A program made the position numbers and the translations under genes. From positions 1 through 37,946 of the forward strand of contig JAGGUG010000076.1 of NCBI GenBank assembly GCA_021158625.1: 37,946 nt of DNA, given 5' to 3'. The notes under the pieces are model-generated. The model was not told the origin of the DNA. It worked only from the letters and a program-made list of their open reading frames with translations, and did no database searches. Origin of the DNA: Candidatus Omnitrophota bacterium. GTDB lineage: Bacteria > Omnitrophota > 4484-213. Shown here piece after piece: positions 1-21,590 of the stretch (its first letter is position 1; each line of letters opens with the position of its first letter).

Positions 1-1419
1 GAAGTAGAGGATAAGATTGGGGCGTATCTCTTTTTGGATAAAGAGAGGATTTTAAACAACGCCAAGGAGGAAAGACAGGGTTTGCTGGCTGGAATTCCTG
101 TAAGTATAAAGGATAACATCTGTGTAGGCGGTGAATTAACCCGCTGTGCCTCTAAGATATTGGAGGGATTTAATTCTCCCTATGATGCAACTACAATCAA
201 AAACTTGAAGAGGGAAGGGGCGGTTCTCTTTGGTCGAACAAATATGGACGAGTTCGCTTTTGGCTCTTCGTGTGAGAGCTCTGCCTATCAAATTACTCAC
301 AACCCCTGGGATTTAGAAAGGGTGCCCGGTGGTTCAAGCGGTGGTTCAGCTGCCGCCGTAGCCGCTGACGAAGCAATATTTGCTCTGGGTTCAGACACCG
401 GCGGTTCAATCCGCCAGCCGGCAGCTCTCTGCGGAATAGTCGGGCTAAAGCCGACCTATGGTCGGGTTTCCCGTTATGGTTTGATCGCCTTTGGTTCTTC
501 TTTAGACCAGATTGGCACACTTAGCAAGGATGTGCGTGATGCCGCTCTTTTGCTAAAAGTAATTGCCGGTTTTGATAGCCAGGATTCTACATCTCTCAAT
601 ACCCCTGTTCCGGATTATGAAACCTATTTAGGAAAGGAGATAAAGGGTTTTAAAATAGGTATCCCCAGGGAGTATTTTATTGAGGGATTAGGAAGAGGTG
701 TAAGAGAAAAAGTAGAGGAGGCAATCAAGGTTTTTCAGAGATTAGGGGCAGAGTGCGTGCAGATCTCCTTGCCCCATACCGAATACGCTGTTTCGGTATA
801 TTACATTCTGGCTACTGCTGAAGCGAGCTCCAATCTATCGCGGTTTGATGGGGTGGAATACGGGCAAAGAGCAAAGAGCAAAAAAAACTTGCTATCAGAG
901 ATGTATGAGCAAACGAGGGGAGAGGGGTTTGGCAAGGAGGTAAAACGGCGGATTATCTTAGGAACCTATGTCTTGAGCAGAGGGTATTACGACCAATATT
1001 ATCTGAAAGCAGCAAAGGTTCGGGAACTCATCAGAGGGGATTTTGAAGAGGCATTTAAAAGATGTGATTTGATTGTTACCCCTACTTCGCCCACTCCAGC
1101 TTGGAAAATAGGCGAAAAAATAGACGACCCTCTGAAGATGTATCTCTCGGATATCTTTACTATCCCGGCGAATTTAGCCGGCATTCCGGCAATCTCTATC
1201 CCCTGTGGTTTTACCCCGTTAGAGGACTCTACGAGACAAAGTAAGAGCAGTGTTCGCAGTATTAAAGAGCGAGCGAAGGATTCTCTAAAGGGGTTTACAA
1301 ATGAACTCCCTGTAGGTTTGCAGATTTTGGGAAAGCCATTTAAGGAAGAAGAAATTTTGCAAGCCGCTTATGCTTATGAACAAGCCACAGAGTGGCATCT
1401 GCAGAAACCAGAATTATAG
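1..1419 (+). CDS. gatA: Glu-tRNA(Gln) amidotransferase subunit A, 5' end cut by window (frame is open from base 1; the M at 34 in the ORF track is an internal TTG)
   Basis: Amidase signature region [13 protein letters not shown] and [13 protein letters not shown]-terminal PCGF...LPVGLQILG...YEQATEWH. Followed by gatB. Confidence 0.95.
1210..1296 (+). repeat. 84-bp in-frame palindromic insertion in gatA (variant of the TACCC-GTTA element family)
   Basis: Left end GGTTTTACCCCGTTAGAGGA and right end TTCTCTAAAGGGGTTTAC are imperfect inverted repeats. The F-T codons are duplicated exactly 84 nt apart (1210 and 1294). It adds 28 aa between PCGF and LPVGLQ. Confidence 0.6.
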
Positions 1420-1427
1420 AATTCAAA

Positions 1428-1468
1428 CTTAATGAAACAAACAAGTCTGACTTAAATGTTTCATTAAG
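1428..1468. other. 12-bp perfect inverted repeat (CTTAATGAAACA / TGTTTCATTAAG, 17-nt loop) in the gatA-gatB spacer
   Basis: Read directly from the sequence. No U-tract follows, so it is not a clear intrinsic terminator. Confidence 0.6.
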
Positions 1469-1483
1469 TATCTCTTATCCATT

Positions 1484-2884
1484 ATGAAATTTAAAGCAAC
1501 CGTCGGATTAGAGGTTCATCTGCAATTAAATACCAAGAGCAAGATATTCTGTGCTTGCTCTGCAGAGTTTGGCGCACCGCCCAATACTCAGACCTGCCCG
1601 GTCTGTCTGGGGTTGCCCGGTTCGTTGCCAGTCCTGAATGCGGAGGTGTTGACTAAGGCGATTAAGCTCTGTTTAGCCCTGAATTGTGAGATAGCCGAAG
1701 AGATAAGGTTTGACCGTAAGAATTATTTTTATCCTGATCTGCCCAAGGGTTATCAAATATCTCAATATGATAAACCTGTAGGTTCTAAAGGAAGATTGGC
1801 GGGGATAGGGATTAGGCGTATTCATTTAGAAGAAGATGCCGGAAAGCTTATCCATACTTCTCAGGGGAGTTTGGTTGATTATAATCGCGCCGGCACGCCT
1901 CTATTAGAGATTGTTAGCGAGCCGGAGATTCAGAGTCCGCAGCAGGCTTATAACTATCTCTTAACCTTGAAATCAATAAGTGAGTATCTGGAGATCTCTG
2001 ATTGTAATATGGAGGAGGGAAGTTTGCGCTGTGATGCCAATATCTCTCTAAATCCTGTGGAGAGCGAGAAATTAGGAACAAAAGTAGAACTAAAGAATAT
2101 GAATTCTTTTCGCGGGGTGGAGAAGGCACTGGAGTTCGAGATAAAGCGGCAGGAGGAGATTTTAAGCCGCGGAGAAAAGGTAATTCAGGAGACCCGGCTC
2201 TGGGATGCTAATAAGGAAATAACCTTGCCAATGCGCAGTAAAGAAGAGGCAAACGACTATCGCTATTTTCCTGAGCCTGACCTCCCACCTTTTTTCGTTT
2301 GCCGAGAGATGGTTGAAAAAATAAAGGCAGAGATGCCCGAACTCCCAGAAGAGCGAAAGCAGAGGTTTATTTCCCAATATAAAATTCCCGAATATGATGC
2401 CTCGGTATTGACAAGTGAAAAGAAGATGGCTGATTATTTTGAGGAGTGTTTGAAATTTTTTCCTAAGCCCAAAACAGTTAGCAATTGGTTGATGCGTGAT
2501 GTGTTGAATTTTTTAAAAGTGGAGAAGATTACCTGGGAGGATTTTCCACTTTTAGCGCAAGATTTTACGGATTTGTTAAAAACAGTGGAGACGAAGGAAA
2601 TCAGTATTAATATGGCGAGAGAGGTATTTTTAGAGATGCTAAAGAGCAATAAAAAGGCGGGAGATATTATTGCCGAGAAGGGTTTGAAGCAGGTAAGTGA
2701 TGAGAAAGAATTAGCGGCTGTTGTTGATGAAGTTATTCGAGCAAATCCCAAATCAGTCAAGGATTTCCAGGCCGGCAAAGAAAAAGCGTTGATGTTTCTG
2801 GTTGGTTATGCGATGCGCGAGACCAAAGGAAAAGCAAATGCACAGGTGGTTCAGAGGCTTTTAAGGGAGAGGTTAAGATGCTAA
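1484..2884 (+). CDS. gatB: Asp/Glu-tRNA amidotransferase subunit B
   Basis: N-terminal GLEVHLQLNT..KIFC, HLEEDAGK, C-terminal YqeY-like tail. Adjacent to gatA. Confidence 0.95.
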   Translation: MKFKATVGLEVHLQLNTKSKIFCACSAEFGAPPNTQTCPVCLGLPGSLPVLNAEVLTKAIKLCLALNCEIAEEIRFDRKNYFYPDLPKGYQISQYDKPVGSKGRLAGIGIRRIHLEEDAGKLIHTSQGSLVDYNRAGTPLLEIVSEPEIQSPQQAYNYLLTLKSISEYLEISDCNMEEGSLRCDANISLNPVESEKLGTKVELKNMNSFRGVEKALEFEIKRQEEILSRGEKVIQETRLWDANKEITLPMRSKEEANDYRYFPEPDLPPFFVCREMVEKIKAEMPELPEERKQRFISQYKIPEYDASVLTSEKKMADYFEECLKFFPKPKTVSNWLMRDVLNFLKVEKITWEDFPLLAQDFTDLLKTVETKEISINMAREVFLEMLKSNKKAGDIIAEKGLKQVSDEKELAAVVDEVIRANPKSVKDFQAGKEKALMFLVGYAMRETKGKANAQVVQRLLRERLRC

Positions 2885-3979
2885 CGGAAATCAAAGATAG
2901 ATTGATAGAAATCAAGAAGAAATTGGAAAACCTACGGGGGTATCTTTGAAATAGATAGCAAGAAAAAGAAAATTGAAGAGCTACAGAAAGAAATGTCTGC
3001 TCCCGGGTTCTGGGATAACCGCCAAAAAGCCGAAAGCGTCTTAAAAGAGCTAAAGGAGTTAAAAAGTGTAGTTGCCCCCTGGGAAAAAGTTAACCAGGAG
3101 TATGAGGATTTAAGTGAGCTTTCTCAATTAATCCAGGAGAGCGATAAGAAGGATGTTGAGGAAATTGCTGCTAACTTAGAGAGATTAAAGGACGATTTAG
3201 AGCAGTTAGAATTTAGGCTCATCCTGGCTAAAGACGAGGATAAAAACAATGCGATTTTGAATATTCATCCCGGAGCAGGCGGCACCGAGGCTTGCGATTG
3301 GGCCGAGATGCTCTTGCGAATGTATCTCAGATGGGCCGAGAAGAGAAAATTTAAAACAAAGGTAATCGACCTTTTGCCCGGCGGAGAGGCAGGAATAAAG
3401 GATGTTACGGTTGAGATTGAAGGCAGTTATGCTTATGGTTATCTAAAAGCCGAAAGAGGCGTGCATCGTCTTGTGCGCATTTCACCCTTTGACGCCAACA
3501 AGCGTCGGCACACCTCCTTTGCCTCAGTGGATGTTATGCCTGAGGTAGAGGAGGAGAAGGACATCGAGCTCAAGCCCGAAGATTTAAAGATTGATGTCTT
3601 TCGTTCTTCCGGCCCGGGCGGACAGAGCGTGAATACTACAGATTCGGCAGTGCGCGTGACTCATCTGCCTACGGGAATTGTGGTAAGTTGCCAGAACGAA
3701 CGCTCCCAATACAAGAATAAAGTCTGGGCATTAAAGGTATTAAAAGCGCGGCTCTATCAGCGTCAATTAGAAGAAGAAAGAAAAAAACTGAAAGAAAAAT
3801 ACGGCGAAAAATTAGATATTGCCTGGGGGAGTCAGATTCGTTCCTATGTCTTTCATCCCTATTCTATGGTCAAAGACCACCGCACCAATATAGAAGAACA
3901 CAATGTCTCGGCAGTAATGGACGGGGAGATTGATAGATTTATTGAGGGATTTCTGAAAAAATTTCCAGATTATGCTTAA
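2878..3979 (+). CDS. prfB: Peptide chain release factor 2, with programmed +1 frameshift (frame 0 covers 2878-2946; T2947 is skipped; the +1 frame runs from 2948)
   Basis: A 23-codon leader [23 protein letters not shown] ends at an in-frame TGA within CGGGGGTATCTTTGAA. The +1 frame joins the 2993 ORF. SPF and GGQ motifs are present. Confidence 0.95.
2935..2949 (+). promoter_or_regulatory. RF2 autoregulatory +1 frameshift site (internal SD-like GGGGG, then TAT CTT TGA)
   Basis: Sequence CGG GGG TAT CTT TGA matches the classical prfB recoding cassette. Confidence 0.9.
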
Positions 3980-6584
3980 CTTTATTCTCAGAAAAATAAT
4001 CGGCACTCAGAATCAGCGGGCGTTGAGAAAGATGGCTCCTGTTGTAGAAAGGATAGAAAGTCTCGAGCCGTCTATCTCTGCTCTCACCGATGACGAACTG
4101 CAGGCAAAGACAGAGGAGTTTAGAGAGCGTCTTAATAAAGGAGAGACTCTGGACGACCTTCTCCCGGAGGCGTTTGCCGTTGTCCGCGAGGCGGGCAAGC
4201 GGACGATAAATATGCGCCATTTTCCGGTTCAACTCATCGGTGGGATTGTTTTGCATCAGGGGAAGATTGCCGAGATGGCCACTGGAGAAGGGAAAACATT
4301 GGTGGCTACCTTAGCGGCTTACTTAAATGCTCTAAGCGGTAAAGGGGTGCACATTGTTACCGTAAATGACTATTTAGCCCGCAGAGACCGCCAGTGGATG
4401 GGGCCAATCTATGAATTTCTCGGGCTTAGTGTAGGGGTAATCCAGCAAGGGATGTCCCCCCAGCAGCGACGTGCCGCCTACAACTGCGATGTTACCTATG
4501 GCACTAACAACGAATTTGGTTTTGATTATCTGCGAGACAATATGGTTGTTTCTATAGAAGATAAGGTACAAAGAGGGCTACATTACGCGATTGTTGATGA
4601 GGTGGATAGCATCCTCATCGATGAGGCCCGTACCCCCCTAATTATCTCCGGTCCGAGCGAGGAATCAACAGATAAATATTATAAGGTAGATAGAATAATC
4701 CCGCTGCTTAAGAAAGGCGAGAGGGATGAGGTGAGCAAAGAGGAAAGAGGGGATTATATTGTCGATGAAAAACACAAGACCTCTTATCTAACTGAACAAG
4801 GGGAGATTAAGGCGGCTAAACTCTTGGGGCTAAAGGATATGCATAGTTTGACAACAATGGAATACAAACACCATGTCAATCAGGCATTGCGTGCGCACAA
4901 CAATTATAAGCGTGATGTTGATTATATGGTCAAAGACAATCAGGTGGTTATTGTCGATGAGTTCACTGGACGATTAATGCCCGGGAGAAGGTGGTCAGAT
5001 GGGTTGCACCAGGCAATTGAGGCAAAAGAAAGGGTAAAGATTGAAAGAGAGAACCAGACCTTAGCTACAATTACCTTTCAGAATTATTTCCGGATGTATG
5101 AGAAACTTGCGGGAATGACCGGCACTGCGGCTACCGAGGCATCAGAGTTTTTGCAGATTTATAAGTTGGATGTAGTGGTTATTCCCACCAATAAGCCATT
5201 AAACAGAACAAATTATCCCGATGTAATCTATAAAACCGAGCGGGAGAAGTTTAATGCCGTAGTGAAAGAAATTGAAGAGCTCCACAAGCAGGGACGGCCA
5301 GTATTAGTGGGCACGGTCTCTATTGAGAAATCCGAGCGGTTGAGCCAGTTGTTAAAAAGAAAGAATATTATGCACTCGGTGTTAAATGCTAAATATCACG
5401 AGCGCGAGGCAGAAATAGTTGCCTTAGCCGGACAGAGGAATGCCGTGACCATTGCTACGAATATGGCTGGGAGAGGCACAGATATTGTTTTAGGAGAGGG
5501 AGTAGCGGAGTTAGGGGGACTGCATATTATCGGCACCGAGAGACACGAAGCCCGCCGAATTGACAATCAACTGCGCGGGCGTGCTGGCCGACAGGGCGAC
5601 CCTGGTTCATCGCGTTTTTATCTTTCCTTGGAAGATGATCTCCTGCGTCTATTTGGCTCGGAGAGGATAATGGGGATGATGAAGCGTTTGGGAATACCGG
5701 AGGGGCAAGCAATCGAGCATAAACTGATTACCCGGGCCATTACTACTGCCCAGAAGAGAGTAGAGGCGATGAATTTTGATATTCGCAAGCAACTTTTGGA
5801 CTACGATAATGTGATGAATAAACAACGCGAGGTGATTTATAAACAACGCGAGGTGATTTTAAAAGGAGAGAATTTAGAGGAGGAGATAAACAGGATGATT
5901 GAATCAGTTTTGGAAAGAGGGCTACAGAGTTATCTCCCTTCTCCAAATACTGATGAACACTGGGACTTAGTCGGCCTTGAGAGATGGTTAAAGCAGAAAT
6001 TTGGAATAGAAAAGCAGATGGATATTAAGGGAGAAGTTCGTCCGCATCTTGTTTATCATGAGATTAAAGAGAATTTATTAAACAAGATAAAGAGTCTCTA
6101 CAGACAAAAGAAGCAGAGGATTGGGGAATCAGCAATGGAATATTTGGAAAGAAGAGCAATGCTTCAGGTGTTGGATACAAAATGGAAAGAACACCTCTAC
6201 GCAATGGACAGTTTGCGTGAGGGGATTGGACTCAGGGCTTATGGTCAGCGCGATCCTCTGGTAGAGTATCAACACGAATCCTTTGCAATGTTTTCGGAGA
6301 TGATAGAGAGAATAGAGGAGGAATCTCTGGAGTTTATATTCAAGGCAGAGCCGATTCAAGAGGAGGTCACGAGCGTATTTTCTGTTCCTCAGGAGTTTGT
6401 GCATAAGGAGATGGCCGGATTAGAGAAGGCCCGGGCAAGGAAAACTCAATTAGAGCCCCCTGTCTCCCCACCGCCTTCTGCCAATATCACCTATCGCCGC
6501 TCAGGAAAAAAGATTGGTCGCAACGAACCCTGCCCCTGCGGCAGTGGGAAGAAATATAAGTATTGCTGTGGAAGAAACGAGTAA
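3972..6584 (+). CDS. secA: Preprotein translocase ATPase SecA
   Basis: MATGEGKT Walker [31 protein letters not shown]-terminal zinc motif [14 protein letters not shown]. Overlaps the prfB stop by 8 nt. Confidence 0.97.
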
Positions 6585-6616
6585 GCTACAGGCTTCACGC
6601 TTAAAAGCAAGAATTA

Positions 6617-8182
6617 ATGCATAGTGAAAGAATAAATTCTAAAGCAGTTTTTCTCGCCGTTCTTTCTTCTTTTTTATTAATTCTTTCCTTTCCTAAATTT
6701 AATCTTTCCTTTTTTGCCTGGGTTGGTTTTGTACCTTTGTTTATTGTCTCTGAGAATAGAACCCGCAAAGAGTCTTTCCTTTTATTTTATTTATCCGGAC
6801 TTATTTTTTGGGCGGGAATTCTTTATTGGCTGATTCAGGTTAATCTCATCGGCTTTCTCCTCTTGATTTTTTACTTAGCTCTTTACTTCGGCATCTTCGG
6901 TTTTTTCATTCCCCCCGCTCCCCGCTCCCCGCTCCCCGCTCCCCGCTATTTACTTTTTCTTCCCTCTTTATGGGTGAGTTTAGAATTTATCCGTTCGCAT
7001 TTATTTACTGGCTTTGGCTGGGCCCTGCTTGGCTATTCGCAATACACAAACCTTCCGATTATTCAGATTGCCGATGTCACCGGCGGCTATGGCGTTTCAT
7101 TTTTGATTATCTTAGTAAATGCAACGATAGGGCGAGTTCTTTCAGAAGTCAAAAAACAGAAGTCAGAAAACAGAAATTATTTATTTCCTTTTTTTTATCT
7201 GTTAAGTGTCCTTTGTCTTCTGTCCTCTGTTTTTATCTATGGTTACAGTAAGTTGACCCACTTCCCACTTCCCATTTCTCACTTCCCACTCAGGATTTCC
7301 CTCATTCAGGGCAATATCCCCCAGCATCAGAAATGGGATGCGCAACTTAAAGAAAGTATCCTGAGCAAATATATCCATCTCAGTGAACAAACCGCCAAAA
7401 GCGACTCTCCGCATCTAATCATCTGGCCCGAGACAGCTGTCCCGGCTTATTTTAATCAAGACAAAGAAGTAAAAAAGAGAATTTTAAGTTTATCCTCAGA
7501 GATAAATACCCCTTTATTAGTAGGAGCAGCAACCTTTCAAAAGAATAAACCCGGCACCAGAGCGATGCAGGGTAAATCTTTTAATAGCGCTATTCTTATT
7601 TCCTCAGGCAAAGCGGTTCAACAATATGATAAACTTCATCTCGTTCCCTTTGGCGAATATGTCCCCTCGCTTTTTTCTTTTGTCCGCAATTTTATTGAAA
7701 TCGGTGATTTTTCAAAAGGCAGAGAATGGAAAATTTTCTCTTTACCCTCTAACCTTTACCCTCTACCCTCTTTTGCCGTGCTCATTTGTTTTGAGGATGT
7801 CTTTCCCTATTTGAGCCGTGGATTTGTGAAGAGAGGGGCAGACTTTTTGATAAATATCAGCAACGACGCCTGGTTTGGCAAAACGAGCGCCCCTTACCAG
7901 CACTGTCAGTCAGCTGTCTTTCGAGCAGTAGAAAACAGGGTAAATGTAATAAAGTGTTCCAATACCGGCGTTTCCTGCTTCATAAGCCCCACAGGAAGAA
8001 TCTCTGGTCGACTTTCTAAGCAAGGAAAGGATATCTTTGTAGCGGGCTATTCTACGCAGAAGATACCAATTGAAAAAACAACGCTTACATTTTACACTCG
8101 CTTTGGCGATGTCTTTGCTATCCTCTGCTTGCTGTTTTGTGGGGGGTTTGGTATAATAAGTATGATAAGAAGACACAAATGA
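6617..8182 (+). CDS. lnt: Apolipoprotein N-acyltransferase (multi-TM N-terminus plus CN-hydrolase domain)
   Basis: Hydrophobic N-terminal half with GFGW..LGYSQ. C-terminal domain has IQGNI..QKW, WPE, ICFE, and NDAWFG. Confidence 0.85.
   Translation: MHSERINSKAVFLAVLSSFLLILSFPKFNLSFFAWVGFVPLFIVSENRTRKESFLLFYLSGLIFWAGILYWLIQVNLIGFLLLIFYLALYFGIFGFFIPPAPRSPLPAPRYLLFLPSLWVSLEFIRSHLFTGFGWALLGYSQYTNLPIIQIADVTGGYGVSFLIILVNATIGRVLSEVKKQKSENRNYLFPFFYLLSVLCLLSSVFIYGYSKLTHFPLPISHFPLRISLIQGNIPQHQKWDAQLKESILSKYIHLSEQTAKSDSPHLIIWPETAVPAYFNQDKEVKKRILSLSSEINTPLLVGAATFQKNKPGTRAMQGKSFNSAILISSGKAVQQYDKLHLVPFGEYVPSLFSFVRNFIEIGDFSKGREWKIFSLPSNLYPLPSFAVLICFEDVFPYLSRGFVKRGADFLINISNDAWFGKTSAPYQHCQSAVFRAVENRVNVIKCSNTGVSCFISPTGRISGRLSKQGKDIFVAGYSTQKIPIEKTTLTFYTRFGDVFAILCLLFCGGFGIISMIRRHK
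6913..6947 (+). repeat. Perfect heptanucleotide tandem repeat (CCCCGCT)x5 inside lnt
   Basis: Five exact units read directly from the sequence; translated as PAPRSPLPAPR. Confidence 0.95.
7143..7177 (+). repeat. About 14-nt tandem repeat (CAGAAGTCAAAAAA / CAGAAGTCAGAAAA / CAGAAAT) inside lnt
   Basis: Direct reading; encodes EVKKQKSENRN. A partly complementary tract (GTCCTTTGTCTTCTGTCCTCTGTTTT) follows at about 7208-7233. Confidence 0.6.
7259..7293 (+). repeat. Degenerate heptamer array (CACTTCC-like, 5 units) inside lnt
   Basis: CACTTCC CACTTCC CATTTCT CACTTCC CACTCAG; encodes HFPLPISHFPLR just before the CN-hydrolase domain. Confidence 0.8.
7743..7777 (+). repeat. Degenerate heptamer array (TACCCTC-like, 4-5 units) inside lnt
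   Basis: TACCCTC TAACCTT TACCCTC TACCCTC TTTTGCC; encodes LPSNLYPLPSF just before ICFE. Confidence 0.8.
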
Positions 8183-9159
8183 TAAGAACCCTTGCTTTGT
8201 TTTCCGGGGGATTGGATAGTGTCCTGGCTGCTAAACTTATTTTAGAACAGGGCATTGAGGTAATCGGAGTAAATTTTATTACCCCATTTTTTGCCTCGGA
8301 TAATGAACAGAAGGTTAAGCAGATTGCCGCTAATTTAGGAATAGAGTTAAAGACAATTGGCTTGGGGGATGAGTATGTTGAAATAGTTAAGTCACCCAAA
8401 TACGGCTATGGCAAAAATCTCAATCCCTGTCTTGACTGCCGAATATTGATGCTTAAAAGAGCAAAGGGTTTGCTTCAAAGAAAGAGGTTGTCCTTTATTA
8501 TCACCGGCGAGGTATTGGGTCAGCGGCCGATGTCTCAACATAAAAACGCATTTGCACTGATTGAGAAAGAAAGCAATCTAAAAGGTTTAATTCTGCGTCC
8601 ACTTTCAGCAAAACTCCTACCGCTCACACTCGCCGAAAAAGAAAACTGGGTAGATAGAGAGAAATTGTTAGATATACAAGGACGCTCGCGCAGGATACAA
8701 ATAGATTTAGCCAACAAATGGGGAATTAGCAACTATTTTTCCCCAAGCGGCGGCTGTTTGCTTACCGACCCTATTTTTAGCCAGAGAATGAGAGACCTTT
8801 TGAGATATCAAGATACCTCTTTGGACAATATAGAATTGCTTAAGATTGGTCGCCACTTTCGTCTATCCCCGCGGACAAAATTGATTGTAGGAAGAGACGA
8901 AAGAGAAAACAATTTCCTTGTTGAGTTAATTAAAACAGAGGATGTTTGCTTTAGACCAATAGAAGTTAAGGGCCCAATAGGTATAGGCAAGGGGAATTTT
9001 GATGACTCGCTGATTGGTTTAGCCACTCAGATAATTGCCCGATATTGCGATGAAAAGGAGAAAGCGGTAGAAATAGGTTGGAAATTGTCTAACCAGAAAA
9101 TGAAGAAAATTAAGGTGATGGCGATGAGCGAGAAAGAAATAGAGGAGTTTAGGATATAA
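8179..9159 (+). CDS. PP-loop ATP pyrophosphatase, ThiI/MnmA-like tRNA sulfurtransferase family (exact function uncertain)
   Basis: SGGLDS PP-loop at the N-terminus, NPCLDC, ITGEVLGQRPMSQ, SPSGGCLLTD. The ATG at 8179 overlaps the lnt stop (ATGA). The ORF-track start at 8137 lies inside lnt. Confidence 0.7.
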   Translation: MIRTLALFSGGLDSVLAAKLILEQGIEVIGVNFITPFFASDNEQKVKQIAANLGIELKTIGLGDEYVEIVKSPKYGYGKNLNPCLDCRILMLKRAKGLLQRKRLSFIITGEVLGQRPMSQHKNAFALIEKESNLKGLILRPLSAKLLPLTLAEKENWVDREKLLDIQGRSRRIQIDLANKWGISNYFSPSGGCLLTDPIFSQRMRDLLRYQDTSLDNIELLKIGRHFRLSPRTKLIVGRDERENNFLVELIKTEDVCFRPIEVKGPIGIGKGNFDDSLIGLATQIIARYCDEKEKAVEIGWKLSNQKMKKIKVMAMSEKEIEEFRI

Positions 9160-9194
9160 AATATGAGCGGATGCAAGGAAAGAAAGTAAATAAA

Positions 9195-9373
9195 GGCGTC
9201 CGCCTCTGGCGGACTATCCTCAGCCCCGAAGTTTCGGGGCTTCGGCTCTCGCTTCGCGAGTAAGGAAGAAAAACAAAAAGCGGAAATCTGCTTTGCAGAT
9301 TTCCTATCCTCAGCCCGCCTACGCTAAAGCTTTGGCGGGCTTCGGCTCTCGCTTCGCGAGTAAGGAAAGGAGG
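9195..9373 (+). repeat. Two tandem copies of a multi-hairpin leader module, each ending in CTTCGGCTCTCGCTTCGCGAGTAAGGAA; the second copy ends in the ribH Shine-Dalgarno
   Basis: Hairpins GTCCGCC-TCT-GGCGGAC (9198-9214) and GGAAATCTGC-TTT-GCAGATTTCC (9282-9304). TATCCTCAG at 9215 and 9305. Identical 29-mers start at 9240 and 9340. A third copy lies at 27966-28015. Confidence 0.85.
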
Positions 9374-9383
9374 TGTGAGAGAG

Positions 9384-9848
9384 ATGAAGACCTATCAGGG
9401 AAAGCTGATTGGTAAAGGGAAAAGGTTTACACTTGTGGTTTCCCGTTTTAACGATTTTATCGGTAAACGGCTTGTGGAAGGGGCAGTAGATGTCCTTGTG
9501 CGTCACGGCGTAGAGGAAAATGGGATTGAAGTTATCTGGGTGCCTGGTTCTCTGGAGATTCTCTATGTAGCTAACAAAATGACAAAAAAAAAGAAGTGCG
9601 ATGCGGTTATCTGCTTAGGGGCAATCATCAAGGGCGAGACATCGCATTTTGATTTTTTAGCCAGTCAGGTAATTAAGGGAATTTCCCAGATTTCTTTGAG
9701 CGGTAATCTGCCGGTAGTTTCAGGAATAATTACCGCGGATTCCCTGGAGCAGGCAATTCAGCGGGCAGGAGCAAAGGAAGGAAATAAGGGGGCCCAGGCT
9801 GCTTTAGCCGCTTTGGAAATGGCAGATTTAAATGAAACTGCAATTTAG
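9384..9848 (+). CDS. ribH: 6,7-dimethyl-8-ribityllumazine synthase
   Basis: RFNDFI, VPGSLEIL, ICLGAIIKGETSHFDF. The ATG at 9384 lies 10 nt after GGAGG, whereas the track start GTG at 9375 abuts the SD. Confidence 0.93.
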   Translation: MKTYQGKLIGKGKRFTLVVSRFNDFIGKRLVEGAVDVLVRHGVEENGIEVIWVPGSLEILYVANKMTKKKKCDAVICLGAIIKGETSHFDFLASQVIKGISQISLSGNLPVVSGIITADSLEQAIQRAGAKEGNKGAQAALAALEMADLNETAI

Positions 9849-9858
9849 CGAGTCCTTA

Positions 9859-9979
9859 CCCCACACCAATTTCTCTTTTGCTTAAGCATCTTGGAAAATT
9901 GGCGGGGGGTTCAATTCGCAAACGGAGTTCGTTCCACAATTTAGGTGGCTTACATTCCGTAAATTGTCTGCTCATTGAA
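9859..9979 (+). repeat. Two-hairpin intergenic module (H1 CCCCACACCAATTT.../...AAATTGGCGGGGGG, then H2 TTCAATTC...CATTGAA), copy 1, abutting the nusB ATG
   Basis: Its 3' part TTCCGTAAATTGTCTGCTCATTGAA is near-identical to copy 2 at 11646-11670. Confidence 0.65.
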
Positions 9980-9980
9980 A

Positions 9981-10490
9981 ATGCGTAAGAGAACAAGAGC
10001 AAGAGAAATAGCCCTCCAGATTCTTTATCTGATTGATATCAGTGAAGATGATTATCAGGTTGCTTGGGAGAAATTTTGGGCTGTAGAGTCTCCCGAGGTT
10101 TCTGAGGAGGCTCATCCTGTTAAATCCGCCGATGGCGGAGCGGCGAAGCCGCTATTTAACAGGGTAAAGGAATTTTCACAGCAATTAGTAAAAGGGACGA
10201 TAGAGAATCTTAAATCGCTCGATGATGTAATTGAGAGCTTCACCGAGAACTGGCGACTCTCGCGGATGGCAGTGGTTGAGCGGAATATTCTGCGGCTTGC
10301 TACCTATGAACTCCTTTTTTGCCCTGAGATTCCTCCAATTGTCTCCATAAACGAGGCAATTGACCTGGCAAAGAAATACAGCGGTCTGGAAGCCGGTAAA
10401 TTCGTGAACGGGATACTGGATAAGATAAGAATCTCCAAGCTGCAAGCCACAAGCTCCAAGCTACAGGCTGACTCAAACCCTGAAGTTTGA
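9981..10490 (+). CDS. nusB: Transcription antitermination factor NusB (carries an internal element insertion and a repeat-derived C-terminal tail)
   Basis: RTRAREIALQILY, WRLSRM..VERNILRLATYEL, INEAIDLAKKY...KFVNGILDKI. Confidence 0.9.
   Translation: MRKRTRAREIALQILYLIDISEDDYQVAWEKFWAVESPEVSEEAHPVKSADGGAAKPLFNRVKEFSQQLVKGTIENLKSLDDVIESFTENWRLSRMAVVERNILRLATYELLFCPEIPPIVSINEAIDLAKKYSGLEAGKFVNGILDKIRISKLQATSSKLQADSNPEV
10113..10166 (+). repeat. 54-nt copy of the TACCCTGTTAAAT palindromic element, in frame in nusB
   Basis: CATCCTGTTAAAT + CCGCC-GAT-GGCGG + AGCGGC-GAA-GCCGCT + ATTTAACAGGGTA; encodes HPVKSADGGAAKPLFNRV. Confidence 0.8.
10434..10468 (+). repeat. Heptamer array (NNCAAGC x5) forming the nusB C-terminal tail
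   Basis: TCCAAGC TGCAAGC CACAAGC TCCAAGC TACAGGC; translated as SKLQATSSKLQA after the conserved NGILDKI end. Confidence 0.8.
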
Positions 10491-10497
10491 TTTTTAT

Positions 10498-11571
10498 ATG
10501 ATGAGCGATGTTGAATATATGCAGTTAGCCCTGCGATTGGCTTTAAAGGGAAAGGGGAAAACCAGCCCCAATCCCTTGGTAGGAGCAGTAGTAGTTAAAA
10601 ACGGAGAGATTATCGGCAGAGGCTATCATCGGCAGGCCGGCAAGAGGCACGCCGAGATTGTTGCCCTTGACGAGGCCGGCAAAAAGGCAAGGGGTTCTAC
10701 GCTCTATGTCAATTTAGAGCCCTGTGCTACTTATGGTAGAACCCCTCCCTGTGTGGATAGGATTATCAAGGAAGGAGTTAAAAAGGTAGTTATTGGAATG
10801 CTTGACCCCAATCCTGTCAATAGAAAAAAGGGGATAAGAAAATTAAAGACGCAGAACATAGATGTAAAGACGGGAGTTTTAACGAAAGAAGCCGAGGAGC
10901 TCAATAAGTGCTGGATAAAGTTTATCACCCAGAGGGAGCCGTATGTGATTCTGAAAGTAGCCCGGTCCTTAGACGGCAAGATTGCCACTTTTACGGGCGA
11001 TTCAAAATGGATTACTTCGCCGGCAGCGCGAGGATATGTGCATAGACTACGTTCGGAGGTGGATGCGATTTTGGTAGGGATAAATACAGTTCTCCAGGAT
11101 GATCCTTTGCTCTCCGCCCGCCTTTCCGAAAAGAGATTATACAGACATCAGCCGACAAAGATAATCTTAGACAGCCATTTAAGAGTTCCTTTAGAGGCAA
11201 AGATTTTTTCTCGCCGGTCCCCGGCACCGGTAATTATCGCTACCACTAAATTTGCTCCTCTCTCTAAAATAAAGAAATTAGAAAAAAAGGGAGTGCAGGT
11301 ATTAATAGTCAAGGCAAAGGATAGGAGACTAGATTTAAAGATGTTGATGGGAGAATTGGCAAAGATGGAGATTGTTTGTCTTTTGATAGAGGGCGGAGGT
11401 GAGGTTTTTGAATCGGCTATAGAAAGCAAGATAGTGGATGAATTTCTTGTTTTTATTGCTCCAAAAATATTTGGCAATGTTAGCAAAGTCTCTCAAGCCC
11501 AGCGATTGAGCAGTTTGGAAATAAAGAAAGTAGGAGAAGATGTATTGCTGGAAGGCTTAACCCAGCACTAA
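10498..11571 (+). CDS. ribD: Bifunctional riboflavin biosynthesis deaminase/reductase
   Basis: Deaminase HAEI...PCATYGRTPPC, then a reductase domain with KVARSLDGKIA and GGGEV. Confidence 0.93.
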   Translation: MMSDVEYMQLALRLALKGKGKTSPNPLVGAVVVKNGEIIGRGYHRQAGKRHAEIVALDEAGKKARGSTLYVNLEPCATYGRTPPCVDRIIKEGVKKVVIGMLDPNPVNRKKGIRKLKTQNIDVKTGVLTKEAEELNKCWIKFITQREPYVILKVARSLDGKIATFTGDSKWITSPAARGYVHRLRSEVDAILVGINTVLQDDPLLSARLSEKRLYRHQPTKIILDSHLRVPLEAKIFSRRSPAPVIIATTKFAPLSKIKKLEKKGVQVLIVKAKDRRLDLKMLMGELAKMEIVCLLIEGGGEVFESAIESKIVDEFLVFIAPKIFGNVSKVSQAQRLSSLEIKKVGEDVLLEGLTQH

Positions 11572-11670
11572 TTTTTCAAAGATGTTTGCCCAAAGTAGAA
11601 AATTAGTGCTGGGTTCAATTCGCACAGCGATTTACGAGCACTTCGTTCCGTAAATTGCGTACTCATTGAA
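11561..11670 (+). repeat. Two-hairpin intergenic module, copy 2 (H1 11561-11613, H2 11614-11670)
   Basis: H1 is CCCAGCACTAATTTT...AAAATTAGTGCTGGG, a 15-bp stem that contains the ribD stop codon. H2 is TTCAATTCGCA...CTCATTGA, and its last A is the A of the ribE ATG. Confidence 0.8.
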
Positions 11671-12314
11671 TGTTTACCGGCATAATCGAACAATTAGGTG
11701 AAGTCACAAAGGTAGAATCTGCCTCCGGCAATAAAAGATTGTTTATCAAACCGACCTCTTTGTGGGAGGATTTACAGATAGGGGAAAGCATTGCTGTAGA
11801 TGGGGTTTGCTTGACTATTGTTGATTTTAAAGAGGACTTGTTTGCCGCTGAAATAATGCCGGCGACCCTCTTGCAAACCACTTTAGGCAATTTAAGGATT
11901 GGCGAGTATGTAAATTTAGAGCGGGCATTAACTCCAAATTCTCGTTTAAGTGGCCACTTTGTCAGCGGTCATATTGACGGAATGGGCATAATTAGCAAAA
12001 AAGAAAAGGGAAGAGATGTTAGTTTATCTGTTGAGGTCCCTGCCGAGCTCAGGAAATACCTTTTGCCCAAGGGTTCTATTGCGGTAGATGGAATAAGTTT
12101 AACTATCGCTGAGATAAAAGACAAAGAATTTATTGCCCATCTCATTCCCCATACTTTAAAGAGTACCAATCTGCAATCTAAAAATGTAGGGGATAAAGTA
12201 AATATTGAGATAGACCTTCTAACAAAAGCAGTTTATCAGTATCTACAGAGGAACTCTGACAAAGACAAACAGGGAATAACAAAAGAGATGTTGAGCAGAG
12301 CCGGGTTCCTCTAA
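11670..12314 (+). CDS. ribE: Riboflavin synthase alpha chain
   Basis: MFTGIIE..G, two lumazine-binding repeats (VDGVCLT / VDGISLT), HLIPHTL. Confidence 0.93.
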   Translation: MFTGIIEQLGEVTKVESASGNKRLFIKPTSLWEDLQIGESIAVDGVCLTIVDFKEDLFAAEIMPATLLQTTLGNLRIGEYVNLERALTPNSRLSGHFVSGHIDGMGIISKKEKGRDVSLSVEVPAELRKYLLPKGSIAVDGISLTIAEIKDKEFIAHLIPHTLKSTNLQSKNVGDKVNIEIDLLTKAVYQYLQRNSDKDKQGITKEMLSRAGFL

Positions 12315-13486: not shown

Positions 13487-14405
13487 AATTTCGGGTTGCG
13501 GGTAAAGGGTTGCGGGGTGCGAATTTCCCGCTTCCCGCTAACCGCTCAAGAACTTGCAGGTACTTCTTACTCGTCTTATCAACTATCTCCGCCGGCAATT
13601 CGGGAGCAGGTGGAGTTTTATCCCAGTTTAAACTCTCCAGGTAATCGCGCACAAACTGTTTGTCAAAACTGGCTTGACTTTTGCCCGCAGAGTACTTATC
13701 CTTAGGCCAGAACCTTGAGGAGTCCGGCGTGAGCAATTCGTCGATAAGGATAATTTCGCCCTTATAGAAACCAAACTCAAACTTTGTATCGGCAATAATT
13801 ATACCCTTAGTTTCGGCATATTCACTCGCTTTTTTATACAGGGCAATGCTTATCTCTTTTAGTTTGCCGGCGGTGTTTTTACCAATTTCTTTTTCAATAT
13901 CCTCTTGGCGGACATTTATATCGTGACCCCTCTCCTCTTTTGTTGCCGGAGTAAAAATAGGTTCGGGTAGTTTATCAGCCTGTTTAAGTCCCTCAGGCAG
14001 TTTTATTCCGCAGATGGATTGGCTCTTCTCATATTCTTTCCAACCTGAACCGGCTAAATAGCCCCGAACTACACATTCCACAGGTATGGGCTCTGCCTTT
14101 TGGACGAGCATTGCGCGGCCAGACAGAATTTCTTTATATTTTGATAGAACAGGAGGAAACTCACGAATATCAGCGCTGAGCAAGTGATTGGGGATAATAT
14201 CTTTTGTTAAGTGGAACCAGAACGCCGAGAGTTTGGTTAACACCTCCCCTTTGTGAGGAATGCCGGTAGGGAGAACTACATCAAAGCAGGATATTCTATC
14301 GGTGGAGATAATCAAGAGTTGAGTTCCTAAATCATAGATATCCCGGACCTTTCCTCTTTTGAAAAGATTGAGTTCAGTAAGGTTTGTTGACTCTACGAGC
14401 GGCAT
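13479..14405 (-). CDS. purC: Phosphoribosylaminoimidazole-succinocarboxamide (SAICAR) synthase, long form
   Basis: GKVRDIYD, ISTDRISCFD, IIIADTKFEFG, LIDELLTPDSSRFW. Confidence 0.93.
   Translation of the reverse strand: MPLVESTNLTELNLFKRGKVRDIYDLGTQLLIISTDRISCFDVVLPTGIPHKGEVLTKLSAFWFHLTKDIIPNHLLSADIREFPPVLSKYKEILSGRAMLVQKAEPIPVECVVRGYLAGSGWKEYEKSQSICGIKLPEGLKQADKLPEPIFTPATKEERGHDINVRQEDIEKEIGKNTAGKLKEISIALYKKASEYAETKGIIIADTKFEFGFYKGEIILIDELLTPDSSRFWPKDKYSAGKSQASFDKQFVRDYLESLNWDKTPPAPELPAEIVDKTSKKYLQVLERLAGSGKFAPRNPLPATRNYG
13493..13548. repeat. Heptamer-periodic imperfect palindrome (GGGTTGC GGGTAAA GGGTTGC GGGGTGC | GAATTTC | CCGCTTC CCGCTAA CCGCTCA) spanning the purC 3' end
   Basis: Direct reading. 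GCGGG blocks in the left half are complementary to CCCGC blocks in the right half, in 7-nt phase. Confidence 0.7.
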
Positions 14406-16230: not shown

Positions 16231-16266
16231 ATTTCCTCCAAAAATTCAGCGTTCCAAGGAGAAAGT

Positions 16267-16275
16267 ATTATATCA
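16267..16275 (-). promoter_or_regulatory. Candidate extended -10 (TGATATAAT on the minus strand) for pckG
   Basis: Reverse complement of ATTATATCA, about 35 nt upstream of the pckG ATG. The -35 is weak (TTTATT). SD GGAGGA lies at 16234-16239 (minus strand). Confidence 0.4.
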
Positions 16276-16319
16276 TATATCGGAGATTAAATAAAGGAAT
16301 TTTTGCCTTTAAAAAAATC

Positions 16320-16348
16320 TTGTTTTTTATTCCAAAATGTGTTATTAT
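16320..16348 (+). promoter_or_regulatory. Candidate sigma70-type promoter for thyX (TTGTTT, 17-nt spacer, TGT-TATTAT)
   Basis: Hexamers and spacing read directly. AGGAGAG SD at 16363-16369, ATG at 16374. Confidence 0.45.
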
Positions 16349-16373
16349 TTAAAAAGTCATTTAGGAGAGAAAT

Positions 16374-21381: not shown

Positions 21382-21590
21382 CACAGGCTTCAAGCCTCAA
21401 GCTCCAAGAGGGTTGTGTCTAAGGGTTTCGGTTGCGGTTACGTATCGTCCATCGTCATCGTTTATCGTCTTAGAACGAGATACGAAACCGAAAGACGTAA
21501 CCGATACGTGGCTGAAACCCCAACCGATAGACGGAACCAAAGCGACCTGCAGCTTGCAGCCTGAAAGCCTGCAGCCTGAGGTTTGGAGCT
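21382..21590. repeat. Entire rpsU-pilC spacer is built from degenerate heptamers (NNCAAGC x4; CGTATCG/GGTTACG/ATCGTCN core; GCTTGNN/GCCTGNN x5)
   Basis: 7-nt periodicity read directly. The left and right arrays are of complementary types. Confidence 0.75.

What the first reader, a model, noticed from the sequence alone, without database searches (positions are those of the whole stretch)
6913..7777. Three heptanucleotide-repeat arrays embedded in frame in lnt, one a perfect (CCCCGCT)5
The arrays lie at 6913-6947 (five exact CCCCGCT units), 7259-7293 (CACTTCC-like x5) and 7743-7777 (TACCCTC-like x4-5). They are translated as Pro/Leu/Ser-rich loops (PAPRSPLPAPR, HFPLPISHFPL, LPSNLYPLPS) at positions that look like inter-helix or inter-domain linkers. 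The same heptamer families occur in intergenic hairpin arms: CCGCTNN at 13528-13548, and the complement of TACCCTC at 20862-20910. So the arrays appear to be intergenic-type repeats that have entered a coding gene. A 7-nt unit is not a multiple of 3, so gain or loss of a unit in the perfect array would frameshift lnt. That would be a slipped-strand ON/OFF switch in what is normally an essential diderm gene.
Basis: partly seen in the sequence, partly recalled or inferred. Interest (0 to 1): 0.65.

Follow-up and report, generated by a model that had tools for sequence, protein, structure and literature searches.

The report
Heptanucleotide arrays encoding Lnt loops
An intact lipoprotein-acylating gene (lnt) of an uncultured Omnitrophota bacterium has its surface loops encoded by short 7-base tandem repeats, a habit shared by lnt genes across the phylum; this looks like stable, frame-locked repeat DNA and not the on/off switch first proposed.

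Summary
ORF 6617-8182 is an intact lnt gene under purifying selection. It carries a perfect (CCCCGCT)5 at 6913-6947, degenerate period-7 arrays at 7257-7290 and 7743-7771, and two more at 7143-7176 and 7207-7230. That is 5 arrays against 0.045 expected from shuffles. In an AlphaFold model four of them encode inter-helix or inter-domain coil.

The ON/OFF-switch reading is not supported. Only the 5-unit allele is on record. About 15 orthologues with arrays are all in frame. No perfect array exceeds 35 nt. One array is identical at nucleotide level in lnt genes whose proteins are only 55-72% identical. Similar arrays sit in gatA.

The larger result is new. Among 120 Omnitrophota Lnt proteins, 7-residue periodic peptides occur 65 times, against 0-6 for any other offset. 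They fall at the same five or six positions. The counts are 0 in 120 PilC and 2 in 120 GatA homologues. Of 24 perfect arrays in 1.63 Mb of fetched loci, 21 lie in lnt.

Best reading: STRR/TAACTGA-like heptanucleotide repeats locked in frame in permissive loops. Why lnt is the preferred host, and why some arrays are nucleotide-conserved, is unexplained. Read-level unit counts could not be tested.

The parts
6617..8182 (+). lnt (apolipoprotein N-acyltransferase), 521 aa, intact
   Evidence: Pfam LNT_N 1e-37 and CN_hydrolase 1e-27. E. coli Lnt structures match at E 1e-38. The catalytic E272/K339/C391 are conserved in the alignments. dN/dS is 0.17 against the 96%-identical relative. AlphaFold pLDDT is 89.9 and pTM 0.92.
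6913..6947 (+). Perfect (CCCCGCT)5 array. It encodes P99-Y111, the loop between TM4 and TM5 (inferred cytoplasmic). The complement (AGCGGGG)5 has a G-quadruplex-capable composition.
   Evidence: TRF score 70, 100% match. Coil at residues 97-107, with pLDDT 68 for block 101-110. The 96%-identical relative has a different 146-nt block here, carrying CTACACG/TGCCTAC heptamers. One unit more or fewer gives a stop at residue 213 or 117.
7143..7176 (+). Period-14/7 array (CAGAAGTCAAAAAA / AAAACAG). It encodes SEVKKQKSENRN at the TM6-TM7 loop.
   Evidence: TRF. It covers the end of helix 152-181 and coil 182-190. The same site carries (ATCAAAA)8, (TCGGTTA)4.6 and (GGCTACA)4.7 in orthologues.
7207..7230 (+). 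Degenerate period-7 array (TGTCCTC / CTGTCYT). It encodes SVLCLLSSV inside TM7 and is partly complementary to the 7143-7176 array.
   Evidence: TRF. It lies in helix 191-214. L086 shows CTGTYNN over 5.7 units here. RNA fold of 7138-7242 gives z = -3.3.
7257..7290 (+). (CCCACTT)4.9 array, 85% match. It encodes THFPLPISHFPL, the linker from TM7 to the nitrilase domain.
   Evidence: TRF. Coil at 215-224. It is kept at the same length in L005 and L095 with point changes only. L086 and L092 have (GTCACCA)4.6-4.7 at this site.
7743..7771 (+). (TACCCTC)4.1 array, 81% match. It encodes LPSNLYPLPS, a beta-hairpin turn just before the catalytic Cys391 strand.
   Evidence: TRF. Strand 374-376, coil 377-382, strand 383-390. 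L092 has (AGTCACC)6.6, L139 (CAAGCTC)4.9 and L140 (CTACCTA)4.4 at this site.
864..882 (+). (GCAAAGA)2.7 inside gatA, a second in-frame heptamer hot spot
   Evidence: TRF. At the same site L005 has a perfect (ACGCCCC)4.6 and L090 has (AAAGGTT)3.7.
10436..10470 (+). (CAAGCTN)~5 at the 3' end of nusB, read as SKLQATSSKLQA
   Evidence: TRF. Replaced by other repeats in L005. The same unit family (CAAGCTC) encodes Lnt site 3 in L139.
13487..13548 (.). Inverted repeat whose arms are heptamer arrays: (GCGGGNN)n ... TTT ... CCCGCTT CCCGCTA ACCGCTC. It is read through as the C-terminal extension of purC.
   Evidence: Sequence. Replaced by unrelated repeats in L005.
21387..21578 (.). Intergenic cluster of heptamer arrays (GCTTCAA, ATCGTCC, CCTGCAG) between rpsU and pilC
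   Evidence: TRF and sequence.

Best explanation
The three arrays, plus two more in the same gene, are short heptanucleotide tandem repeats. They are of the class known as STRR in cyanobacteria, TAACTGA repeats in Beggiatoaceae and GGGNATC repeats in Xanthomonas and Nostoc. Here they are translated as the short, sequence-unconstrained loops of a functional Lnt.

A unit survives inside a gene only if all three of its reading frames are stop-free on the sense strand. The surviving units are C-rich. Each array is read as a 7-residue periodic peptide that fills a 10-12-residue loop.

Because 7 is not a multiple of 3, only changes of three units keep the frame. Slippage by one or two units gives a truncated, inactive enzyme and is removed by selection. 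The arrays are therefore locked at about 4-5 units (28-35 nt). They then either decay by point mutation, as at 7257 and 7743, or are replaced wholesale, as at 6913.

Shown: the arrays, their loop positions, frame conservation, phylum-wide site specificity, the 35-nt ceiling and a 21-nt in-frame variant. Inferred: slippage as the generating process, selection as the locking force, and loop topology.

Not explained: why Lnt is the preferred host, and why some arrays are identical at nucleotide level in distant lineages.
For: - The gene is intact and constrained: Pfam and PDB matches, catalytic triad, dN/dS 0.17.
- Four of the five arrays map to coil between secondary-structure elements of a confident model.
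- Orthologues carry period-7 arrays at the same sites with other units, and all are in frame.
- In 120 Lnt homologues there are 65 offset-7 runs against 0-6 for each other offset. They cluster at residues ~1-20, ~99, ~173, ~213 and ~375.
- Perfect arrays are 26-35 nt and never longer.
- The longer arrays fit steps of three units: (ATCAAAA)8.0 in L086 and a 25-residue run in P0097.
- Two strains of one 90%-identity protein cluster differ by exactly 21 nt in a degenerate array.
- Comparable arrays occur in gatA and at the nusB 3' end.
- Heptanucleotide repeats are the commonest long SSR class in many prokaryotes. They occur at 2-6 copies per set and change in 7-nt steps (PMC4679880). One family prefers about four units (PMC4692102).
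Against: - A purely passive 'tolerated litter' model does not predict the lnt bias. Array density is about 15 times higher in lnt than in 297 kb of flanks (28 against 13, binomial p 2.5e-16). Counts are zero in 120 PilC and 2 in 120 GatA homologues.
- It does not predict that (TCGGTTA)4.6 is identical over 32 nt, with the same left boundary, in three lnt genes. Their proteins are 55-72% identical and their flanks about 70% identical. Closer relatives of one of them carry other units at that site.
- The same unit occurs at two sites of one gene in L140, L092 and L012. This hints at copying between sites, not independent in-situ birth.
- The loci are related by descent, so the binomial test overstates independence.
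Confidence: 0.55

Rival explanations
1. Contingency locus. The perfect (CCCCGCT)5, and the other arrays, are kept because slipped-strand gain or loss of a unit reversibly switches Lnt off. That would change all lipoproteins from triacyl to diacyl form.
For: The unit length is not a multiple of 3 and the array is perfect. One unit more or fewer truncates the protein before the catalytic domain. The strong, phylum-wide concentration of perfect arrays in this one gene, with different units in different lineages, resembles how contingency genes keep a tract while its sequence drifts. The 96%-identical relative has a completely different sequence at site 1, so that site turns over fast.
Against: No OFF allele or unit-number variant was found. 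The window and three contigs of the same metagenome all have 5 units. The exact products of 1-9 units are absent from about 15 billion proteins. All array-bearing orthologues are in frame. Arrays stop at 5 units or 35 nt, which is short for a hypermutable tract. Copy number and sequence are conserved between distant lineages, and at sites 2 and 3 between the window and L005/L095. Arrays lie in mid-gene loops, not at the 5' end. Comparable perfect arrays sit in gatA. Lnt shows purifying selection.
Confidence: 0.1
2. Dual-coding cis-elements. The arrays are kept by selection on the nucleic acid. They could be binding sites for a factor that reads heptad repeats, or arms of RNA or DNA hairpins that affect translation or transcription of lnt. 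They are placed in loops because only there is the peptide unconstrained.
For: (TCGGTTA)4.6 is nucleotide-perfect across deep divergence while its flanks diverge. There is a limited vocabulary of units, many within one or two changes of TCAGTTA, the complement of TAACTGA (PMC4679880 proposes regulator binding for TAACTGA). Arrays flanking the TM7-coding segment pair as RNA in L140 (z = -5.8) and in the window (z = -3.3). Intergenic arrays in the window form hairpin arms. There is a strong host-gene bias.
Against: Many different, unrelated units occupy the same site in different lineages, which is hard to square with one reader protein. Complementarity between arrays of one gene is only 10% against 5% between genes. 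Many arrays, including the window's at 7257 and 7743, are decaying. No candidate factor was identified.
Confidence: 0.2
3. Miniature mobile or templated elements. Ready-made arrays of about 30-35 nt are copied from elsewhere in the genome into a few receptive sites. This would resemble Nostoc small dispersed repeats or Rickettsia palindromic elements that insert in frame.
For: The length distribution of perfect arrays is narrow, 26-35 nt. The same unit occurs at two sites of one gene in L140, L092 and L012. The same array turns up patchily in distant lineages. The window has another in-frame insertion, a 60-nt nested palindrome in the PEPCK gene that is absent from the close relative.
Against: No target-site duplication, terminal signature or associated enzyme was seen. 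Units at one site in close relatives are related by rotation or one or two changes, as expected from evolution in place: CTAC-family at site 1 and GTCACCA/CAGTCAC at site 2. The window's CCCCGCT resembles the degenerate 3' end of the L005 array, CTCCCTGCTGCC. The narrow length can also follow from loop length plus the frame lock.
Confidence: 0.12

Closest known systems
TAACTGA heptanucleotide direct repeats of marine Beggiatoaceae, cyanobacteria and some Bacteroidetes (MacGregor 2015, PMC4679880)
   Same: Tandem 7-nt units at 2-6 copies per set, dispersed through the genome. Indels come in 7-nt steps between strains. A few sets lie inside ORFs in the stop-free orientation and are translated as 7-residue periods (SVISYQL). 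The described genome and this lineage both come from hydrothermal-vent or marine-sediment metagenomes. Many Omnitrophota units (TCGGTTA, TCAGTTG, TCAGCTG) are within 1-2 changes of TCAGTTA.
   Different: Those repeats are one dominant unit, mostly intergenic and just upstream of start codons. Here there are dozens of units, concentrated in mid-gene loops of one protein family. The window's own units (CCCCGCT, CCCACTT, TACCCTC) are not TAACTGA-like.
Cyanobacterial STRR heptamers and GGGNATC / GGGGA(C/T)T repeats of Xanthomonas and Nostoc (Rehm 2015, PMC4692102)
   Same: Heptanucleotide tandem arrays are over-represented genome-wide, with a preference for about four units. G/C-tract units can form G-quadruplexes. 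The complement of (CCCCGCT)5 is (AGCGGGG)5, which has that composition.
   Different: [quoted passage not shown] Most arrays here are not G-rich, so a G-quadruplex cannot explain the 4-5-unit preference.
SSR-mediated translational phase variation (for example CTCTT in Neisseria opa, tetranucleotides in Haemophilus), recalled from general knowledge; the heptamer promoter repeats of H. influenzae hmw1A are in PMC8262952
   Same: A tandem unit whose length is not a multiple of 3, inside an ORF. One-unit slippage shifts the frame.
   Different: Known switches have longer tracts whose number varies between strains, usually near the 5' end of surface or restriction-modification genes. Here tracts are at most 5 units, mid-gene and constant in number, in a housekeeping envelope enzyme.
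Tandem repeats of Borg elements that create disordered regions in proteins (PMC9879509)
   Same: Perfect, recently formed tandem repeats inside genes that encode new loop or disordered segments.
   Different: Per that paper's abstract the repeats are on extrachromosomal Borg elements of archaea and are virtually absent from the host. Here the unit is 7, so only the total length is frame-constrained.
Rickettsia palindromic elements and Nostoc small dispersed repeats
   Same: Selfish short repeats tolerated in frame at permissive surface positions of essential proteins.
   Different: Those are 20-150-nt unique or palindromic elements with signs of mobility, not tandem heptamers. No mobility signature was found here.

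Membership tests
Lnt (apolipoprotein N-acyltransferase) | N-terminal multi-helix membrane domain plus a carbon-nitrogen hydrolase domain | tested here: met
   Pfam LNT_N 1e-37 and CN_hydrolase 1e-27. The model has 8 long helices and an alpha-beta domain. PDB Lnt chains match at E 1e-38.
Lnt (apolipoprotein N-acyltransferase) | Catalytic Glu-Lys-Cys triad | tested here: met
   E272, K339 and C391 are invariant or nearly invariant in 16- and 120-sequence alignments.
Heptanucleotide tandem repeats (STRR / long-SSR class) | Head-to-tail 7-nt units, at least 2-3 copies | tested here: met
   TRF period 7, 3.4-5.0 copies at five places in lnt.
Heptanucleotide tandem repeats (STRR / long-SSR class) | Many dispersed arrays per genome, in excess over chance and over other periods | tested here: met
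   12 arrays against 1.1 in shuffles. Period 7+14+21 arrays occur at 3.7 per 10 kb against about 0.8 in 1.1 Mb of outgroup loci.
Heptanucleotide tandem repeats (STRR / long-SSR class) | A few dominant unit sequences per genome, mainly intergenic | tested here: not met
   There are at least 12 different units in 38 kb, and 8 of 12 arrays lie inside ORFs. Only 8 of 112 within-locus unit pairs are within one change of each other.
TAACTGA repeat family | Unit TAACTGA or its complement TCAGTTA | tested here: not met
   The window's units are CCCCGCT, CCCACTT, TACCCTC, AAAACAG and TGTCCTC. Near-variants occur only in other Omnitrophota lnt genes.
Phase-variable contingency locus (translational SSR switch) | Repeat unit not divisible by 3 inside the ORF, so that unit change shifts the frame | tested here: met
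   Four or six units give stops at residue 117 or 213.
Phase-variable contingency locus (translational SSR switch) | ON and OFF repeat numbers coexist in populations or differ between close strains | tested here: inconclusive
   Only 5 units appear in four contigs. No variant product is in the protein collection. The metagenome scan found nothing, not even the source contig. The read tool refuses the array, and older runs are held only as contigs.
Phase-variable contingency locus (translational SSR switch) | Tract long and variable in number among relatives | tested here: not met
   All perfect arrays are 26-35 nt. Copy number is conserved at sites 2 and 3 between 96%-identical genomes and at the TM6-7 loop across proteins 55-72% identical.
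Phase-variable contingency locus (translational SSR switch) | Gene product dispensable, usually a surface or restriction-modification function | not testable with these tools
   The essentiality of Lnt in Omnitrophota is unknown. dN/dS of 0.17 shows it is under constraint.
In-frame selfish mini-elements (RPE / SDR-like) | Defined element with terminal or palindromic signature and copies elsewhere in the genome | tested here: not met
   The lnt arrays are plain tandem repeats with no terminal signature. Only the 60-nt PEPCK insertion is palindromic.

The most novel reading that the evidence does not exclude
Across Omnitrophota, five or six fixed loop positions of Lnt are written in perfect arrays of about 33 nt, drawn from a limited heptamer vocabulary. 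Selection on the nucleic acid keeps these arrays. This would be a dual-coding cis-element system, or a true low-rate contingency switch, specific to the enzyme that finishes lipoprotein acylation, not inert repeat DNA.
Probability: 0.2. Interest if true: 0.8.

Novelty: new variant of a known kind. Interest (0 to 1): 0.6.

Why it matters
Heptanucleotide repeats have been known for decades in cyanobacteria, Beggiatoaceae and Xanthomonas, with no agreed function or origin. In those groups they are mostly intergenic.

Here the same kind of repeat is found systematically inside one conserved enzyme across a whole candidate phylum. It sits at fixed structural positions, translated in all three frames, and is sometimes perfectly conserved at nucleotide level.

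That gives a defined, comparative system with hundreds of natural alleles of one gene. It can be used to ask how such repeats arise, how the reading frame limits microsatellite dynamics, and whether they carry a nucleic-acid function.

It also warns annotators. A non-triplet perfect repeat in an essential gene is not by itself evidence of phase variation. These arrays may also break metagenome assemblies; this was suggested but not shown here.

Tried and rejected
- **Read-level heterogeneity.** Laying the flanks showed only Logan contigs. One contig ends at 6955, and contigs of the L005-type allele appear in other samples. No unit counts could be made.
- **Metagenome scan for flank + N{14,44} + flank.** It gave no hit, not even the source contig, so it is uninformative.
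- **Split gatA and secA in L004 against L005.** I first suspected repeat-driven frameshifts. They are 92- and 37-nt deletions between short direct repeats, unrelated to heptamers and possibly assembly errors.
- **Truncated P0005.** The 478-aa length is a start-codon call. The N-terminus is intact upstream.
- **Genome-collection scan with the Lnt alignment.** I used these as outgroup controls.
- **Shared unit families within a genome.** Only a weak excess was found: 7% of pairs within one change, against 2% for random units.
- **Complementarity between arrays of one gene.** 10% against 5% between genes, which is inconclusive.
- **Pseudogene and artefact.** Rejected by the intact ORF, dN/dS 0.17 and independent assemblies from JGI, ENA, NCBI and Logan.
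- **Second lnt copy.** None in the window. The rest of the genome was not available.
Full report
**1. What is at the coordinates**

The window comes from an uncultured member of Candidatus Omnitrophota. The best Lnt match, at 86% identity, is from 'Omnitrophica bacterium 4484_213'. Runs that hold the sequence are hydrothermal-vent and marine-sediment metagenomes.

ORF 6617-8182 (+, 521 aa) is lnt. It matches Pfam LNT_N (1e-37) and CN_hydrolase (1e-27), and E. coli and Pseudomonas Lnt structures at E 1e-38. The catalytic Glu272, Lys339 and Cys391 are conserved.

Its neighbours are housekeeping genes: gatA, gatB, prfA and secA upstream; thiI, ribH, nusB and ribD downstream. TonB and the MlaE/MlaD/ABC-transporter (MlaF-like) genes are consistent with a diderm envelope.

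**2.

Tandem Repeats Finder reports:
- (CCCCGCT)5.0 at 6913-6947, 100% match
- (CCCACTT)4.9 at 7257-7290, 85% match
- (TACCCTC)4.1 at 7743-7771, 81% match
- a 14/7-mer array at 7143-7176
- (TGTCCTC)3.4 at 7207-7230

In dinucleotide-preserving shuffles, lnt yields 0.045 period-7 arrays against 5 observed. The whole window yields 1.1 against 12.

In an AlphaFold2 model built on 120 homologues (pLDDT 89.9, pTM 0.92) they map as follows:
- residues 97-107: coil between helices 77-96 and 108-128
- residues 182-190: coil between helices 152-181 and 191-214
- residues 215-224: coil between the last N-terminal membrane helix and the first strand of the hydrolase domain
- residues 377-382: hairpin turn before the strand that carries Cys391
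- the 7207-7230 array lies inside helix 191-214

From the established topology of E. coli Lnt (N-terminus inside, hydrolase domain periplasmic), I infer that the first two loops are cytoplasmic and the last two periplasmic.

**3. The gene is alive**

Against the roughly 96%-identical relative (L005), the ungapped 1206-nt block downstream of site 1 has dN/dS = 0.17. The window holds no second copy.

**4. Test of the switch idea**

One CCCCGCT unit fewer gives a stop after 117 residues. One more gives a stop after 213. In-frame states are 2, 5 and 8 units. The tract is therefore a latent frameshift site. I found nothing to show that it is used:
- The window and three contigs from the same metagenome all carry 5 units.
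- The exact products expected from 1-9 units are absent from a collection of about 15 billion proteins. Only the 5-unit protein is present.
- Reads could not be examined. The tool refuses the repeat, and the available runs are stored as contigs. A metagenome pattern scan returned nothing.

**5. Close relatives**

A global alignment of window 1-16466 with L005 shows that nearly all indels and unalignable blocks fall at repeat-bearing spots.

At lnt site 1 the window's 53-nt block is replaced by a 146-nt block carrying CTACACG and TGCCTAC heptamers. Its degenerate 3' end, CTCCCTGCTGCC, resembles the window's unit. This fits local rewriting of the site.

Sites 2 and 3 are kept at the same length with a few substitutions in L005 and L095.

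In gatA, the window's (GCAAAGA)2.7 faces a perfect (ACGCCCC)4.6 in L005 and (AAAGGTT)3.7 in L090, all at the same position. GatA is a subunit of the Asp/Glu-tRNA amidotransferase. On general knowledge I expect it to be indispensable where it is the only route to Asn- and Gln-tRNA; that was not tested here.

**6. Orthologue DNA**

In lnt genes of the same clade, each permissive site carries a period-7 array. Many are perfect, and the units differ.

| Site | Window | L005 | L086 | L090 | L092 |
|---|---|---|---|---|---|
| Site 1 | (CCCCGCT)5 | (TGCCTAC)3.6 | (CCTCTAC)2.9 | (TGCCTAC)4.3 | (GCTACAC)4.3 |
| TM6-TM7 loop | AAAACAG-type | AAAACAG-type | (ATCAAAA)8 | (TCGGTTA)4.6 | (GGCTACA)4.7 |
| Site 2 | (CCCACTT)4.9 | (CCCACTT)4.9 | (GTCACCA)4.6 | (CAGTCAC)2.9 | (GTCACCA)4.7 |
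| Site 3 | (TACCCTC)4.1 | TACCCTC-type | none | none | (AGTCACC)6.6 |

More distant Omnitrophota-like genes (L012, L098, L007, L099, L100, L139, L140) show the same thing at the same relative positions, about 0.2, 0.34, 0.43 and 0.72 of the gene. All of these ORFs are intact.

**7. Phylum-wide statistics**

*DNA level.* Over 28 Omnitrophota-like loci there are 28 period-7 arrays (TRF score >=40) in 43 kb of lnt, against 13 in 297 kb of flanks. That is a 15-fold difference in density, with binomial p 2.5e-16. The loci are related by descent, so the p-value is optimistic.

Of 24 perfect arrays of at least 26 nt in 1.63 Mb of all fetched loci, 21 are in lnt. Lengths run from 26 to 35 nt and none is longer.

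*Protein level.* I counted runs of at least 4 identical residues at a given offset in the 120 best homologues of three proteins from the window.

| Protein | Residues scanned | Offset-7 runs | Other offsets 3-12 | Length s.d. (aa) |
|---|---|---|---|---|
| Lnt | 61,817 | 65 | 0-6 each | 17 |
| PilC / T2SS-F (polytopic membrane control) | 48,230 | 0 | 0-28 each (offset 5 = 28, offset 8 = 8) | 2.6 |
| GatA | 57,694 | 2 | 0-1 each | 6.0 |

Of the 120 Lnt proteins, 46 have at least one such run. At a looser cut-off, 88 do. The runs fall at residues ~1-29, ~90-100, ~170-179, ~210-219 and ~370-379.

Of the 65 runs, 57 are exactly 11 residues long, about 33 nt.

**8. Why about 4-5 units**

A 7-nt unit can change copy number in frame only in steps of three. 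Starting from about 4.7 units the neighbouring states are 1.7, which is no longer an array, and 7.7.

The rare longer arrays fit this: 8.0 units in L086 and a 25-residue run, about 10.7 units, in P0097. Two strains of one 90%-identity cluster differ by exactly 21 nt in a degenerate N-terminal array.

The loops themselves are 10-12 residues long, and E. coli has a loop of similar length at site 1. I infer that loop length plus the frame lock sets the observed size.

**9. What the frame-lock model does not explain**

- **The host bias towards lnt** (section 7). Other membrane proteins in the window (PilC, MlaE, EamA, TonB) have no arrays.
- **Nucleotide conservation.** The peptide SVIGYRLSVIG occurs, with variant SVIGCRLSVIG in two, at the TM6-TM7 loop of eight Lnt proteins that are 55-87% identical; one further pair is 99%. 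In L090, L139 and L140 the DNA is the same perfect TCGGTTA array over 32 nt, directly after a TAT codon. The 30 nt on either side are about 70% identical or less. Within the window's own clade only L090 has this array. The pattern is therefore patchy.
- **Repeated units within one gene.** L140 has CGGTTAT at the N-terminus and the TM6-7 loop, and CTACCTA at sites 1 and 3. L092 and L012 show the same kind of sharing.
- **Pairing of arrays flanking the TM7-coding segment.** They can pair as RNA in L140 (z = -5.8) and in the window (z = -3.3). Over all array pairs the excess of complementarity is small, 10% against 5%.

These points keep two rivals alive. One is selection on the nucleic acid (dual coding). 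The other is copying of ready-made arrays.

**10. Literature**

Heptanucleotide repeats are reported as the most abundant long SSR class in many prokaryotes, with slippage proposed as their source (cited in PMC4679880). Three papers are closest:
- TAACTGA repeats occur at 2-6 copies per set. They change in 7-nt steps between Cyanothece strains. A few lie inside ORFs in the stop-free orientation and read SVISYQL (PMC4679880).
- Borg tandem repeats create disordered protein regions (PMC9879509).

Several Omnitrophota units are one or two changes from TCAGTTA. The window's own units are not. Two searches of the paper library found nothing on heptamer arrays in Omnitrophota. I did not search the library for lnt itself.

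**11. Verdict**

The ON/OFF switch is not supported by any comparative evidence, though read data are lacking.

The best-supported account is frame-locked, loop-encoding heptanucleotide repeats of a known class. The phylum-wide preference for fixed positions in Lnt appears unreported and is not explained.

Noticed in passing
window 15406-15465 (PEPCK gene, - strand 14374-16230): A 60-nt in-frame insertion that is absent from the 96%-identical relative L005. It is a nested palindrome: TTTACCCTGT...ACAGGGTAAA enclosing TCCCGAATAAGTCGGGA and TCCGCCTTTGGCGGA. It adds 20 residues (VYPVKSAKGGIPTYSGLFNRVNG region) to PEPCK.
   Followed up: partly
window 9198-9214, 10125-10139, 15439-15453, 27966-27982: A small GC hairpin family, (G)TCCGCC-NNN-GGCGGA(C). 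It occurs in intergenic DNA, inside nusB and inside the PEPCK insertion. Neighbouring hairpins GCCCCGAAGTTTCGGGGC and CTCGCTTCGCGAG lie at 9222-9260.
   Followed up: no
window 5811-5863 (secA): A 21-nt unit repeated 2.6 times, in frame, giving [13 protein letters not shown] in SecA. It is conserved in L005, L088 and L090, so it is an old triplet-compatible repeat and not a heptamer array.
   Followed up: partly
window 8157-8184 versus L005 11614-13222: The close relative has about 1.6 kb of extra small genes between lnt and thiI, including an AAA_23/SMC_N-like ORF. The window lacks them.
   Followed up: no
window 20915-20965 and 21100-21145; L090 9430-9560: AT-rich repeats of the type TAATGAC / CTAATTA / ATTAGACAT fill several intergenic regions. 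In L090 they include the secA-lnt spacer. This is a second, unrelated repeat family.
   Followed up: no
L003 1-152 (contig Ga0187538_156072): The contig start is chimeric. A piece of thiI is followed by an inverted copy of window 6857-6915 that ends inside the CCCCGCT array, and then by window 6354 onward. Separately, a Logan contig of run X1 ends at 6955, 8 nt past the array. The array may break assemblies, but this was not shown.
   Followed up: partly
L004 versus L005 (two assemblies of the 4484_213 lineage): L004 lacks 92 nt in gatA and 37 nt in secA, each between short direct repeats. This splits both genes. It is probably an assembly error or real deletions, and is not heptamer-related.
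   Followed up: yes
window 17843-18802 and 18796-19767: Two adjacent ORFs of about 320 residues each both match the cobalamin-independent methionine synthase catalytic domain (Meth_synt_2). They form a tandem pair of half-size MetE-like genes.
   Followed up: no
window 7138-7242; L140 905-1065: The arrays on either side of the TM7-coding segment are partly complementary and fold into an interrupted hairpin as RNA. In the window the MFE is -20.5 kcal/mol (z = -3.3). In L140 it is -49.8 kcal/mol (z = -5.8).
   Followed up: partly
window 26178-26227 and 26973-27004: A 25-nt unit repeated twice lies between mlaE and the ABC ATPase gene. A perfect 14-nt unit repeated 2.3 times (AAATTCCAAATCAC) follows that gene.
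   Followed up: no
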